Source of the DNA: Diplonema japonicum
Lineage: Eukaryota; Protista; Euglenozoa: Diplonemea
DNA: 64,000 nt
NCBI GenBank assembly: GCA_964019335.1
Contig: OZ025752.1
Span: forward strand, 62,001 to 126,000
Direction of reading: 5' to 3'
The notes under the pieces were generated by a model. That model searched no databases. It was not told where the DNA came from and saw only the letters and a list, made by a program, of their open reading frames with translations. Below are positions 17,759 to 27,636 of the stretch, piece after piece; the stretch's first letter is position 1; the number at the start of each line of letters is the position of its first letter. The position numbers were made by a program, and so were the translations under genes.

Positions 17759-18725
17759 GGAAAAGATGCTACTTTGATATTTCCGTGGGTGAGACACCAG
17801 AAGGCAGGGTTGTGATAGAGCTCTTCGACGATGTGGCCCCTAAGACGGCCGAAAACTTCCGCGCCCTGTGCACGGGCGAGAAGGGCGGAATCCCGGAACA
17901 CGAAGAGATAAAAATGCATTATAAAGGAAGCAAGTTCCACAGAGTCATCCCTGGGTTCATGTGCCAGGGAGGAGACTTCACAGCCGGCGACGGCACCGGA
18001 GGATGGTCAGTATTCGGTGAAAACTTCGATGATGAAGAGTTCGTAAAAACCCACTCCGGACCGGGCATCCTCTCCATGGCAAATGCCGGCCCTAACACAA
18101 ACTCATCCCAATTCTTCATCACCACTGTTGACTGCCCCCATCTCAACGGCAAACATGTTGTCTTTGGAAAAGTAATCAAGGGAATGTCAACCGTCAGAAA
18201 AATGGAGCTCACACCCACCAAGAAATATGACGTTCCTGAAAAAGATGTCACAATCACAGATTGCGGTACCCTGGAAGACGGTGAAGCGGACGGAGTTGCA
18301 TCCGATCCTTCTGATCAATATGAGGAATTTCCGCAGGACTGCACACCCGCCTTGACCGAGGAGGAGAAGGTGAAGGCCGGCGACGCCGTGAAACTTCTTG
18401 GAAACAACCATTTCAAAGCGAAGGAATTCCCGCAAGCTATCGCAAAGTACCAGAAGGCCAACAGGTACCTTTCTGCCGTCATACCTACGGACAGTAACAA
18501 GGCTGAGATTATCAAGCAGCAGATTGCTTGTTTCTCCAATATGGCCCAATGTTACCTGAAGTTGTCGAAGTGGCTCGAGGCCAAGAACGCCACTGCAGGG
18601 GCGATGAAACTGGAAACTGGTGACACCAACGCAAAAGTTGTCTTCCGGCATTCGCAAGCCCTCTTTGAGCTTAACCAGCTGGAGGAGGCGAAAACCTTCG
18701 CTACCAAGGTATTAAAGGGGAAGGG

Positions 18726-18783
<58 letters not shown>

Positions 18784-18912
18784 CAGGCAAAGGAGCTCTC
18801 TCCCGAGGACAGTGGTCCCAAGGATCTTCTTGCGAAAATTGCGGCAAAGAGCAAAACGCTTAAGGACAAGAGGAAGGCAGCGGTGAAGAAGTGGCTTTCT
18901 TCTGAGGAGTAG
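17755..18912 (+). CDS. CYP40: Cyclophilin-40 (PPIase + TPR), join(17755..18708,18787..18912)
   Basis: Motifs [47 protein letters not shown] and [10 protein letters not shown], plus three TPRs. Removing the intron restores the TPR segment ...[12 protein letters not shown]. Confidence 0.93.
18709..18786 (+). other. GT-AG intron with an internal poly(A) tract (78 nt, phase 0)
   Basis: aag|gtatt...(A)n...acccag|gca. It interrupts a TPR helix with in-frame poly-Lys. Confidence 0.9.
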
Positions 18913-19353
18913 AGTGAGTGAAGCGAGAGTTTAAAAAAAAAAAAAAAAAGACTTGTTGGTTTTTTTTTTTTTTTCCTTTGCCTTTTTTTTTTTAATCACT
19001 TTTTTTTATTTTCTTATCTTAAACAAAGTGTGTTGCTTCTCCCTTCTTCCCCCCCCCCCCCCCAGCTTTCCATAGTTTTTTAGAAGAAAAAAAAAAGCGG
19101 GAATTATTTATTTCCCCATCTCCCCCCCTTTTTTTTTGCTCCTTTTATTTTTCTCTTTTAAAAAAAATGACCGATCTTGCAAAAAAAAAAAGAAATATTA
19201 TAGTTTCCCCCAATCCCATTACCACCTCAATTTTTTTTTTATTGGTTCTTCTTTTTCTTTTTTTTTTTCCCCCCGGCTCTTTTCTTTTTTGCCCCCCCCC
19301 CTAAATTTCCGTGCAAAGGGGGTTAAAAAAGAAAAAGAAAAAGAAAAAGAAAA

Positions 19354-20511
19354 ATGGCGTCTTTTTCAGACAGGCTAAGCGCATTAAAAGCACAGGTAGG
19401 GACCAAACGCAAAGCAGCAGCGAGCACTGCAGAGGAGCAACGGAGGAAGAAGATCCTGACGGTGAAGAAGCTGAAGGGGGACGAGGCACTTCGGAAAAAA
19501 CGAGAGGAGGTGGAAAGCCAACAAAAAAAAACGGGTATATGGGCAGTCCTGAAAACAGGCATGAAAATGGAATGGCCCGTGGGCAAGGCAAAGCTGCAAA
19601 ACAACCTCCCCACACACAAAGGCAGTCACCACTCCACCTGGATAGTTGACGTCGCGTCCGAGGGGACCTTCCACGCTAGGATACTAAATGAGGAGTTCGA
19701 AAAAAAAAGCACGCGAGAAATTCGAAAAATTCTGAACCATTCCATCGCAAGGGAGCACACCATTCAAACCCTGGTGGGCCGCACCGGAATCGGGTTTCGA
19801 ACCGCATTTTCTCTAAAAGAATTTAACTGCATCATCCACCACAAATCAACAGAGAGCGATCTGAAAAAATGTGAAGAAAGTGATGTTCAGGGTAAAATTG
19901 CATTATTTTCAAGCGTGTTGAAGAAGCTTCACGGTACAGAAGCGCCTGCTGCCTTGAACGGGCACAGTTGGAATGTTTTTACAGGGATTGAAGATTTAGT
20001 GAGCTGGATTAAATCTGAAGGGAAGCCCCTTCCAATTGGGGAAAGATTTCAGGAAATCGAAACGCTGATTTCACAGTGGCGGGAAATTCTGAGCGCGCAC
20101 CATCCTGACGGCCTGTCAAAATCTTACGTTTGCCACAATAATCTCCGTGCCGCCGATCTTTTTTCTTCAACGTCCTCTTCACGAATCTTTATTACAGATT
20201 TTTCGTACGCCGCGTTGGGTGACCGCTACTACGACCTTGCACAGTTCGCACGTTTGAACAAACTGTCCTCTTCGCAAAACATAATTCTCCTCAAATCGTA
20301 CTTTGGGGATTATCAGCAGCGGCAGTTAGCTTGTTTCAGCCTTCTCTCATGCTTAGGTAAGCTCTTTGAAGGCCTGCAGGAGTACGTGTGTGGTGAAATC
20401 GACGGCTCGAAGGAAGTTATGCAAAATGGCGCGGCAAAGGTGGGAAAATTCTTGGAGGAAGCTAACGATGAGACACTGGTGAAGCTGGTGGGGGAGGAGT
20501 TGATGAAATGA
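19354..20511 (+). CDS. Choline/ethanolamine kinase-like (APH-family) protein, possibly a pseudokinase
   Basis: VCHNNLRAADLF and IFITDFSYAALGDRYYDLA resemble the family motifs CHNDL...N and IDFEYA...RxFDL. The N-terminus is basic and coiled-coil-like. Confidence 0.7.
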   Translation: MASFSDRLSALKAQVGTKRKAAASTAEEQRRKKILTVKKLKGDEALRKKREEVESQQKKTGIWAVLKTGMKMEWPVGKAKLQNNLPTHKGSHHSTWIVDVASEGTFHARILNEEFEKKSTREIRKILNHSIAREHTIQTLVGRTGIGFRTAFSLKEFNCIIHHKSTESDLKKCEESDVQGKIALFSSVLKKLHGTEAPAALNGHSWNVFTGIEDLVSWIKSEGKPLPIGERFQEIETLISQWREILSAHHPDGLSKSYVCHNNLRAADLFSSTSSSRIFITDFSYAALGDRYYDLAQFARLNKLSSSQNIILLKSYFGDYQQRQLACFSLLSCLGKLFEGLQEYVCGEIDGSKEVMQNGAAKVGKFLEEANDETLVKLVGEELMK

Positions 20512-20746
20512 TCACATCATTTTTTTTTTTTTTTCTTTCTTGCATCGTTTGATTTCCATACACCAACATCGCTTGACACGGTATCGCAGCTTTAGGTTTC
20601 TTTTGCTCGAGTCTGGTAGTCCGAAGTAATAGTTTGCTACAGCGCCACTTGATATCATATTGTAGCGGCTCGTTTAGTGAGTCGGCTTACCTTTAAAAAA
20701 AAAAAAAAAAAAAAAAAAAAGGCGGGGGTGGTACACACATTCACAC

Positions 20747-20791
<45 letters not shown>

Positions 20792-20798
<7 letters not shown>

Positions 20799-25811: not shown

Positions 25812-25847
<36 letters not shown>

Positions 25848-26025
25848 CAGGCATTTCATGCCGGTTTTTTTTTTCCCCATCTCCGTTCCCTCTCCCCTAC
25901 ATTTTCTTTTTTTTTTTTTTCCCTTTCCAATTTTTTTTTTTTTTTTTTTTTTCTAAAAAAAAATTTTTTTTTTTCCTCAATTTATTCCAAAAAGTTCAAA
26001 AGGGGAAAAGAAAAAAAAAAAAAAA

Positions 26026-26821
26026 ATGGGTGCGCCGGAACACGACCAGAACAGCCATGTGACTCCCGTCGATGATCCGAAGGGAGAGATCGACAAGAGC
26101 AAGCAGGTTGACAACGATGACGAGGGGGATGAGGAGGCCGCCACCAGCATCGACAAGACTAAAGAGCAGCTTGCCGAGGAGGCGATCAGGAGGTGGCAGC
26201 AGTTCCACTACCCTTCCTGGGCCAGATACATGATTTACACCATGTTCGCCTGCTGTGTCATCAACCAGATCATGACTCTGGACCAGTGGCACGGAACCCA
26301 CATGTGGAGGAAACCCTTTGACCTGTTCCCCACAAACAACATTCCTGGTGGATGGCAGGAGGACGATCTTCGCTACGGATGTGCGATCCTGGGTCTACTC
26401 TCGTCGTGCTTTTCCTTTGTGCTGTCGCCGACTGCTGACAAGTTCAAGTTCATGTTCCTAGTAATGTTCACATCTGGTGTCCTTGGTTTGGTCAGCTTCG
26501 GAATGGATCTGTTCCACCTCAACGTGTGTTTTGCTTTAAAAAAAAAAAAAAAAAAAAAAAACCCAGAGGGCGACGGAGCTCCCGCAGTGCAACCAGATCA
26601 ACGACAACATGACCAACAAGTACATCTGCAACTTTGCTCGTTTCCGTGCCACCGTCATGTTCGACATCATCAGCGGTGTCTTTGGGATCTGCATGTCGTT
26701 CTTCATCCTTCACCAGGCCCTTACCGGTACTGTGTCGAGGAGGATGATCTTCAACGAGCAGAAGGGTACCTGGGACAAGATCGTCCTCTCCCCCGATGAT
26801 GCCTACAGCAAGGTGTTTTTG

Positions 26822-26856
<35 letters not shown>

Positions 26857-27314
26857 CTTCCCCAAGCGTTTTGCTCGTCAGAGGCCGTTCTTCAACCTGG
26901 CTGTGTTCCTTCTCGCCTGTATCAACGGGACGCTCCTTGCTCTTACCATCACTCAGACCACCGGGGATCTTCTCCAGTTCAAGGGCGAGGCAACCCCGAG
27001 GTACAACCCCTTCCGCACCACGCCCGTTGACCAGTACATCATCCAGGGGGACGAGGCTATTAGATACGGTATGGGAAAAAAAAAAAAAAAAAAAAAAAAA
27101 ATGCAGGTAGCTGGCCGTTGTTGAACTTCGAGATCCGTTTGTCGACGAACGCCCTGGCGCTGGTTGTGCTTGCGTTCCTTATCCAGTGGAGGAGAGATGG
27201 ACGCTTTGCGCAGTTCTGCGTGCTTCTGCTTCTTCTCGCTGCCTCTGTGCTGTACTTGTCTGCCTTTTCGCTTGACTACATTGAGTACGATGCTGTATGT
27301 GTTTCATTTTTTGG

Positions 27315-27361
<47 letters not shown>

Positions 27362-27636
27362 ACATATATACTACCCAGGCTTTCGACGATGGGTGCCAGT
27401 TTGCCAAGGCCAACAGCCAGGAGTGCGTGTACTCCAGGTACCTGGCTACCCTTATCTTTGATGGTTTCTGTGGATTCCTCCTTCTTTTCTTCTCTGTCTT
27501 CAACCTGTACCAGTGGCTCCTGCAGGCTGCCAAGCCTCGCGAGGTCATCGAGGGACGCACCTACGGCTGGTGGTGGAACGGAGAGTGGGCCGCCAAGAAG
27601 CAGGCGAAGGCTGTTAACAGAGCCCTTGAGGAATAG
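26026..27636 (+). CDS. Multipass membrane protein, two internally repeated 4-TM modules (467 aa); join(26026..26523,26567..26812,26855..27068,27107..27294,27379..27636)
   Basis: Four GT-AG A-tract introns join three ORF-track frames into one continuous reading frame. The two halves align (GW..LR / SWP..IR; F..D; C..C..RF/Y.AT..FD). Confidence 0.85.
26524..26566 (+). other. A-tract intron 1 (43 nt)
   Basis: aac|gtgtg...(A)n cccag|agg. Splicing restores the frame into the ORF at 26609. Confidence 0.85.
26813..26854 (+). other. A-tract intron 2 (42 nt)
   Basis: aag|gtgtttttg(A)n g|gcc. In frame; would read as poly-Lys if retained. Confidence 0.8.
27069..27106 (+). other. A-tract intron 3 (38 nt)
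   Basis: tacg|gtatggg(A)n tgcag|gtagc. Splicing restores the frame into the ORF at 27118. Confidence 0.85.
27295..27378 (+). other. A-tract intron 4 (84 nt)
   Basis: gct|gtatgt...(A)n...acccag|gct. In frame. Confidence 0.85.

What the first reader, a model, noticed from the sequence alone, without database searches (positions are those of the whole stretch)
18709..27378. All cis-introns carry poly(A) instead of polypyrimidine tracts
Seen: five introns (78, 43, 42, 38 and 84 nt) are GT...(A)n...AG with no pyrimidine tract next to the AG and no recognisable branch consensus. Three end in acccag. In Cyp40 the exon end accaag|g mirrors the intron end acccag|g, like a decayed TSD. Introns 2 and 3 of the membrane gene repeat aagg and ggta at both borders, while introns 1 and 4 show no convincing repeat. 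Established: U2AF normally reads U-rich tracts, and in trypanosomatids polypyrimidine tracts trigger SL trans-splicing with coupled polyadenylation. Inference: A-rich versus U-rich tracts may be a code that separates cis from trans acceptors, implying unusual 3' splice-site recognition.
Basis: partly seen in the sequence, partly recalled or inferred. Interest (0 to 1): 0.8.

Follow-up and report, generated by a model that had tools for sequence, protein, structure and literature searches.

The report
Poly(A)-filled spliceosomal introns in a diplonemid
Five short introns in this marine protist are spliced out although they carry a run of A where most eukaryotes have a U-rich tract; the quirk is already published for Diplonema japonicum, and it likely arises because U-rich tracts here signal spliced-leader addition and are therefore kept out of introns.

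Summary
All five GT-AG borders are exact: only these reproduce two transcriptome proteins, and contigs of three runs skip the membrane-gene introns. The host is a diplonemid (Cyp40 68% identical to D. papillatum). Thakur et al. 2025 (PMC12621601) already report poly(A) in place of the pyrimidine tract in D. japonicum, with rare branch motifs and U2AF1/2 present. The species here is inferred, not shown.

The cis-versus-trans contrast is not in that paper's main text. It gains one mapped example: the leader joins at 25994, downstream of T22 and T11 tracts. A strict 'A = cis' code is weakened, because a close relative adds the leader at an AG that another relative precedes with 20 A. The best reading is U-avoidance in short, donor-defined introns. 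In two introns the only possible branch adenosines lie inside the A-run. The decayed-TSD idea is not supported: three other genomes have the Cyp40 intron at the same codon. Elsewhere in the window, true poly(A)-tailed insertions with TSDs exist, and one forms a ready-made GT-AG intron.

The parts
17755..18912 (+). Cyclophilin 40 gene, two coding exons (17755-18708, 18787-18912), 359 aa
   Evidence: Pfam Pro_isomerase and TPR; spliced product identical to P0001
18709..18786 (+). Cyp40 intron, 78 nt, A56 then CCCAG; position shared with other genomes
   Evidence: genome-called homologs P0008, P0009, P0013 diverge into V-C at the same codon
25931..25994 (+). Spliced-leader acceptor of the membrane gene: T22, A9, T11, mixed, A5-G; leader joined after 25994
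   Evidence: X8 contig: 22 leader letters then 25994-26026 with 0 differences; leader identity from the PMC3795323 table; leader absent from the window
26026..27636 (+). Multi-pass membrane protein gene of unknown function, five coding exons, 467 aa
   Evidence: spliced product identical to P0121; 19 relatives; only weak Pfam hits below cut-off
26524..26566 (+). Membrane intron 1, 43 nt, A24 then CCCAG; no A outside the run except the terminal AG; position shared with one other genome
   Evidence: P0125 diverges into V-C at the same codon
26813..26854 (+). Membrane intron 2, 42 nt: 9-nt donor part, A32, G. A minimal intron with no pyrimidine in its last 34 nt
27069..27106 (+). Membrane intron 3, 38 nt, A26 then TGCAG; absent from the genome-called homolog P0124
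27295..27378 (+). Membrane intron 4, 84 nt, A41 then 23 mixed nt; predicted end-to-end stem; absent from P0124
   Evidence: fold -8.0 kcal/mol, z -2.83, 3 of 200 shuffles as good
20677..20721 (+). Unresolved test site before ORF 20792-21313: either a 45-nt poly(A) intron in the 5' UTR or a leader acceptor directly after A26
   Evidence: GTGAGT donor, A26-G, longest pyrimidine run only 5 in the 170 nt before the ATG; not resolved by reads
41152..41329 (+). Poly(A)-tailed insertion with a 14-nt target-site duplication in a truncated DUF4116 copy; GT 41164 to AG 41327 (164 nt) would remove it exactly
   Evidence: filled versus empty paralogs; coordinates; splicing not tested

Best explanation
These are spliced GT-AG introns with an A-run in place of the pyrimidine tract, likely removed by the major spliceosome and likely A-rich because U-rich tracts are selected out of introns, not because A is read as a code. 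Inferred steps: (1) The introns are short, so the donor and U1 probably define them. The branch adenosine would lie in the A-run, which is forced in two introns if the branch is an adenosine. The first AG after the run is used, in 5 of 5 (shown). (2) Homopolymers expand all over this genome's non-coding DNA (shown). (3) In a polycistronic euglenozoan a U-tract inside a gene would invite leader addition and coupled polyadenylation, so only A-runs survive in introns. The cis/trans difference is then 'donor nearby and no U-tract' versus 'U-tract upstream'; the bases just before the AG can be A-rich in both.
For: Exact splicing. Longest T-run 1-6 in the five introns, against T22 and T11 before the one mapped leader site. 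14 of 15 gene starts (7 of 8 gene families) have a pyrimidine run of 9 or more upstream, and the rule 'first AG after that run' hits the mapped site. T. brucei splices poorly with poly(U) under 9 nt, and splicing dictates upstream polyadenylation (PMC9639853, abstract). Trypanosomatid cis-introns have pyrimidine tracts and their acceptors do receive the leader: 1 of 2, 2 of 6, 1 of 12 and 2 of 12 long reads (PMC11613528). No A outside the run in 26524-26566 and 26813-26854; no AG between run and acceptor. 57 A-runs and 41 T-runs of 12 nt or more in the window. A/C-rich bases before predicted leader AGs, and A20-G in a relative, fit avoidance better than a code.
Against: Only one leader site is mapped; the others are predicted by a rule that uses pyrimidine runs, which is partly circular, and the 170-nt windows are longer than the introns. 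5 of 5 A is borderline against the window background (p 0.04-0.09). Four other diplonemids with canonical introns and Euglena keep C-rich or pyrimidine tracts in cis-introns, so poly(A) is not required. Read-through peptides of homologs P0009 and P0125 are rich in F, I, L and V, which suggests U-rich intron starts elsewhere. The U-threshold and the polyadenylation coupling come from trypanosomes, not diplonemids. No lariat or factor data.
Confidence: 0.5

Rival explanations
1. Neutral drift: the spliceosome here ignores the tract, cis versus trans is set only by an upstream donor, and A-runs reflect slippage with a sense-strand bias, as in the A-rich 5' UTRs.
For: A-runs outnumber T-runs on the + strand (52 vs 41 outside the introns). 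A28, A42 and A16 sit right before three start codons. A leader-used AG may follow A20 in a relative. Euglena shows no cis/trans difference. The donor-decides rule of nematodes is recalled, not read.
Against: Does not explain why upstream regions keep long U-tracts while none of the five introns does, nor why A dominates acceptors across 10,131 D. japonicum introns.
Confidence: 0.25
2. Active code: a factor binds the A-run and marks the acceptor as cis, while U2AF reads U-tracts for trans-splicing.
For: A-run in 5 of 5 introns, ending within 5 nt of the intron end in 4 of 5; mapped leader site is U-rich. A diplonemid-gained extra 'U2af large subunit A' orthogroup is listed in PMC10161547 supplement 5 (1 copy each in three diplonemids, 0 in R. 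humris; D. japonicum not in the table).
Against: A20 before an AG that a sister sample uses for the leader; A5 before the mapped leader AG. ORF 20792 may take its leader after A26 (unresolved). Relatives splice the same intron positions without needing poly(A), by inference. No A-binding factor was tested.
Confidence: 0.15
3. Retro-insertion origin: the introns, or their A-runs, are poly(A) tails of truncated retro-insertions whose target-site duplication supplied the AG.
For: Four poly(A)-tailed insertions with 8-14 nt direct repeats lie in this window; two were aligned to empty paralogous sites; one forms an exact GT-AG unit. Introns 3 and 4 are absent from one homolog. Cyp40 exon end and intron end match at 6 of 7 nt.
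Against: No TSD at any of the five intron A-runs (best match 4-5 nt, null mode 4). Cyp40 intron and membrane intron 1 are shared with genomes at 46-69% protein identity. CCCAG also ends two introns whose upstream exons do not match it.
Confidence: 0.07
4. Fail-safe for retention: a retained intron would be read as 7 or more lysines from AAA codons and stall ribosomes, replacing stop-codon surveillance.
For: No in-frame stop in any of the five introns; lysine runs of 7-13 in the four membrane introns; 3 of 5 are multiples of three. Stalling on poly(A) is recalled knowledge.
Against: 3 of 5 is near chance (about 0.2 by my own binomial estimate); short A-rich introns lack stops trivially; run lengths vary between samples.
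Confidence: 0.03

Closest known systems
Diplonema japonicum canonical introns with poly(A) in place of the polypyrimidine tract (Thakur et al. 2025, PMC12621601; parts 1-4 of 8 of the text and term passages read; figures and supplements not available)
   Same: GT-AG ends, donor like G/GTATG, CAG end, A dominant in the last 20 nt, short (median 41 nt there; 43 here), branch motif rare (13.9% there; 0 of 5 here), U2AF1/2 present.
   Different: The paper does not compare with leader acceptors (0 hits for 'outron' and 'spliced leader'), locate the branch, or discuss the source of the A-runs. The window's species was not returned by any search.
Trypanosomatid leader acceptors and their three cis-introns (PMC9639853 abstract; PMC11613528 passages and section 7)
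   Same: U-rich tract upstream of the leader AG; no branch consensus.
   Different: Their cis-introns keep pyrimidine tracts and their acceptors also take the leader; here the introns lack such tracts.
Euglena gracilis conventional introns and outrons (PMC11170887, parts 1-2 of 4 read)
   Same: GT-AG, GTGTG-like donor, CAG, U-poor tract; cis and trans splicing coexist.
   Different: C-rich tract shared by cis and trans acceptors; no poly(A) and no cis/trans contrast.
Euglenozoan non-canonical introns (Hemistasiidae, euglenids) and introner-type introns
   Same: Short border repeats in two introns; predicted end pairing in intron 4.
   Different: Ends are canonical; four of five have no stable fold; no TSD; two positions are shared with distant genomes.

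Membership tests
U2-type (major) spliceosomal intron | GT...AG ends, removed from mRNA | tested here: met
   5 of 5
U2-type (major) spliceosomal intron | Donor resembles the lineage consensus G/GTATG | tested here: met
   T at +4 in 5 of 5, G at +5 in 3 of 5, G at -1 in 3 of 5; consensus
U2-type (major) spliceosomal intron | Polypyrimidine tract before the AG (typical, not obligatory) | tested here: not met
   longest pyrimidine run 1-6; 0-3 of 20 in four introns, 10 of 20 in one
U2-type (major) spliceosomal intron | Branch consensus YTRAY (typical, not obligatory) | tested here: not met
   0 of 5
U2-type (major) spliceosomal intron | Lariat formation and dependence on U1/U2/U2AF | not testable with these tools
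   no genome held, no snRNA in the window; components reported present in PMC12621601
D. japonicum poly(A)-tract introns | A most abundant in the 20 nt before the AG; short length | tested here: met
   17, 17, 20, 17 and 10 A of 20; 38-84 nt
D. japonicum poly(A)-tract introns | The window comes from D. japonicum | tested here: inconclusive
   diplonemid by homology and leader; species name not returned by any search
Euglenozoan non-canonical intron | Non-GT-AG ends | tested here: not met
Euglenozoan non-canonical intron | Stable pairing of the two intron ends | tested here: inconclusive
   four introns 0 to -2.1 kcal/mol; intron 4 -8.0, z -2.83, one of five tested
Insertion-derived (introner or retro-inserted) intron | Target-site duplication at the borders | tested here: not met
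   border repeats 3, 0, 4, 4, 1 nt; no TSD at the A-runs
Insertion-derived (introner or retro-inserted) intron | Position specific to one lineage | tested here: inconclusive
   not met for Cyp40 and intron 1; introns 3 and 4 absent in one homolog; intron 2 not resolved
Insertion-derived (introner or retro-inserted) intron | Repeated copies elsewhere in the genome | not testable with these tools
   no genome held; the 5' end of intron 4 is unique in the window

The most novel reading that the evidence does not exclude
This lineage separates cis from trans acceptors by U-content. Its spliceosome removes an intron made only of a donor, an A-run and AG, branching inside the A-run without U2AF-tract recognition. 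As a result, poly(A)-tailed retro-insertions with an AG-containing target-site duplication, like the one at 41152-41329, are ready-made introns and a running source of intron gain.
Probability: 0.25. Interest if true: 0.7.

Novelty: already known. Interest (0 to 1): 0.38.

Why it matters
The poly(A) tract itself is in print for D. japonicum, so the headline is not new. What remains open is how an intron-rich, polycistronic genome keeps internal acceptors from taking the leader, which happens at trypanosome cis-introns. A 42-nt intron consisting of a donor, A32 and G is a very simple natural substrate for tract-independent splicing. The contrast with a mapped U-rich leader site makes the question testable from existing RNA-seq. 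If poly(A)-tailed insertions can act as introns here, that would link retrotransposition to intron gain.

Tried and rejected
No whole genome is held, so the genome-wide strand-bias and cis/trans tests could not be run. No RNA holder is listed as such; X7 and X8 are taken as RNA from their spliced or leader-bearing contigs. Rows at low-complexity stretches were dropped by the read tool, so joints were deduced from piece coordinates. No contig of X7, X1 or X2 was listed over 20487-20683, but a hole proves nothing, so the 20677-20721 question stays open. The X2 contig with leader letters at 25994 has 3 mismatches in 33 and probably belongs to another gene; it was not counted. Rfam: 0 hits. A pattern scan for donor + A-run + AG gave 19 hits on + and 3 on -, against 2 and 7 for T-runs; it recovered only 3 of the 5 known introns and many hits lie in repeats, so it is not used as evidence. 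The TSD null is inflated by tandem repeats (6% reach 8 nt). Metagenome scans gave nothing or four uninterrupted cDNA-like contigs without intron information. U2AF orthologs could not be examined because no query sequence was available from a tool. The species name of P0001/P0121 could not be looked up. Supplements of PMC12621601 (snRNA sequences, logos) and Additional file 1 of PMC10161547 (intron and UTR sections) could not be read and may already bear on the cis/trans contrast. Searches that found no cis/trans comparison for diplonemids; one search found no paper with four of five terms on poly(A)-tailed intron gain. PMC5737717 (passages) and PMC13598402 (passages, no mention of introns in the main text) added nothing. 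Earlier scan findings: none in three look-ups.
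Full report
Setting. The window is eukaryotic, with the recognised genes on the + strand and many homopolymers: 57 A-runs and 41 T-runs of 12 nt or more. The first gene is cyclophilin 40, 68% identical to Diplonema papillatum CYP40 and 100% identical to a transcriptome protein, P0001. A leader tail on its RNA-type contigs matches a euglenozoan leader in PMC3795323. 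The host is therefore a diplonemid. D. japonicum is my inference from the intron type; no call returned the species.

The introns are real. P0001 lacks exactly the 26 residues of 18709-18786, and this is the only GT/GC-AG pair tested that reproduces it. Contigs of X7, X1 and X2 skip 43 nt and then 164 nt, while X4 contigs enter the introns and break at the A-runs. So the A-runs are genomic and are removed from mRNA. None of the five has YTRAY. Four have 17-20 A in the 20 nt before the AG; the fifth has 10 A and 10 pyrimidines. In all five the acceptor is the first AG after the run. In 26524-26566 and 26813-26854 there is no other A, so an adenosine branch must lie in the run (the branch itself is inferred). 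Against the window's own runs, five of five A is only borderline (p 0.04-0.09; about 0.3 counted as two genes).

Prior art. Thakur et al. 2025 (PMC12621601; parts 1-4 of 8 and term passages read) analysed 10,131 D. japonicum introns: 98.33% GT-AG, median 41 nt, donor (G)/GTATG, YTRAY in 13.9%, A the most abundant base in the tract, described as 'atypical poly(A) tracts', and U2AF1/2 present. The headline is therefore known. The main text has no hit for 'outron' or 'spliced leader'; its supplements could not be read.

Cis versus trans. One leader site was mapped. An X8 contig carries 22 leader letters followed by 25994-26026 with no difference; the match is only 33 nt and half of it is an A-run. 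The 23 nt at -13 to -35 of that AG are 61% T, against 4-17% T or none in the introns. Fourteen of 15 gene starts (7 of 8 families; seven are DUF4116 paralogs) have a pyrimidine run of 9-38 nt within 170 nt upstream, and the introns have at most 6. The rule 'first AG after the longest run' gives 25994 for this gene. The other sites are predictions, and the comparison favours the longer windows. Against a strict code: in relatives about 94% identical, X2 has the leader joined to CAC just before the A-run and ATG, while X1 shows 20 A and G before the same CAC. X1 and X2 are coded as different organisms but share 24 of 29 differing positions, so this is a hint; an upstream leader site or an assembly path through the run could also explain it. 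The mapped AG itself follows A5, and the 10 nt before several predicted leader AGs are A/C-rich. ORF 20792 has no pyrimidine tract and may take its leader after A26; this is unresolved.

Mechanism. In T. brucei poly(U) under 9 nt splices poorly and splicing dictates upstream polyadenylation (PMC9639853, abstract). Trypanosomatid cis-introns carry pyrimidine tracts, and their acceptors receive the leader in a visible share of long reads (PMC11613528). D. papillatum adds a leader to essentially all mRNAs and has long unidirectional gene arrays (PMC10161547, passages). The simplest reading is that short introns are defined from the donor, that homopolymers expand by slippage, and that U-runs are purged from introns because they would trigger leader addition or cleavage. 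A-runs also supply a branch adenosine and contain no AG. This is inferred from trypanosomes. Other diplonemids and Euglena use C-rich tracts, which fits U-avoidance but shows that poly(A) is not needed; Euglena shows no cis/trans difference.

Origin. The decayed-TSD idea fails for Cyp40. Three genome-called homologs (P0008, P0009, P0013) leave the alignment at the same codon into V-C, as read-through of a GTNTG donor would. P0125 does so at membrane intron 1. Border repeats are 0-4 nt around AG|G, and no intron A-run has a TSD. Introns 3 and 4 are absent from P0124, assuming it was called on unspliced DNA, so they may be younger; intron 4 can pair its ends (z -2.83, one of five tested). Separately, the window holds poly(A)-tailed insertions with direct repeats of 8-14 nt at 11595/11659, 11763/11847, 40856/40887 and 41152/41316. 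The last would be removed exactly by GT 41164 to AG 41327, though two other AGs lie between its A-run and that AG, and splicing was not tested.

Verdict. Real, exactly mapped, and very likely the published D. japonicum feature. The cis/trans contrast is a worthwhile, apparently unreported and cheaply testable extension, better framed as U-avoidance (0.5) than as an A code (0.15). Interest 0.38.

Noticed in passing
window 20677-21313: A 173-aa ORF with no Pfam hit, covered by contigs of X7, X1 and X2, has two long A-runs and no pyrimidine tract upstream; it is the best local test of the cis/trans idea.
   Followed up: partly
window 11595-11666, 11763-11856, 40856-40896, 41152-41329: Poly(A)-tailed insertions with 8-14 nt direct repeats in degenerate gene copies; one is only 4 nt plus the A-run. 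The 41152 insert has a second copy near 40530-40665. Signs of retro-insertion activity.
   Followed up: partly
window 7288, 9942, 12638, 14183, 29856, 32208, 36243, 38585, 44141, 49023, 54866, 56955, 59389, 62440: A recurring T-rich stretch ending in a CATTTCAG-like motif, before DUF4116 and kinase genes and in transposon debris: possibly a portable leader-acceptor cassette.
   Followed up: partly
window 28350-28403 and 28914-28979: Further donor + A-run + AG stretches outside known coding sequence; may be UTR introns or chance.
   Followed up: no
window 29846-63243: Tandem DUF4116 gene family (seven Pfam-positive ORFs) mixed with reverse-transcriptase and DDE fragments.
   Followed up: no
window 45141-48266: Intronless ORF with an ADP-ribosyltransferase domain and ankyrin repeats.
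   Followed up: no
window 3284-6313, 7494-8900, 9990-11753, 19327-20511: Two kinase-ankyrin genes (the second disrupted), a tyrosinase-domain gene and a weak choline-kinase-like gene, all without introns.
   Followed up: no
window 14640-17500 and 22616-25500: A degenerate tandem repeat with variable A and T runs, and high-copy repeats by contig depth.
   Followed up: no
PMC10161547 supplement 5, orthogroup OG0019132: An extra U2AF large-subunit-like family listed as a diplonemid gain; a candidate for acceptor-specific recognition.
   Followed up: no
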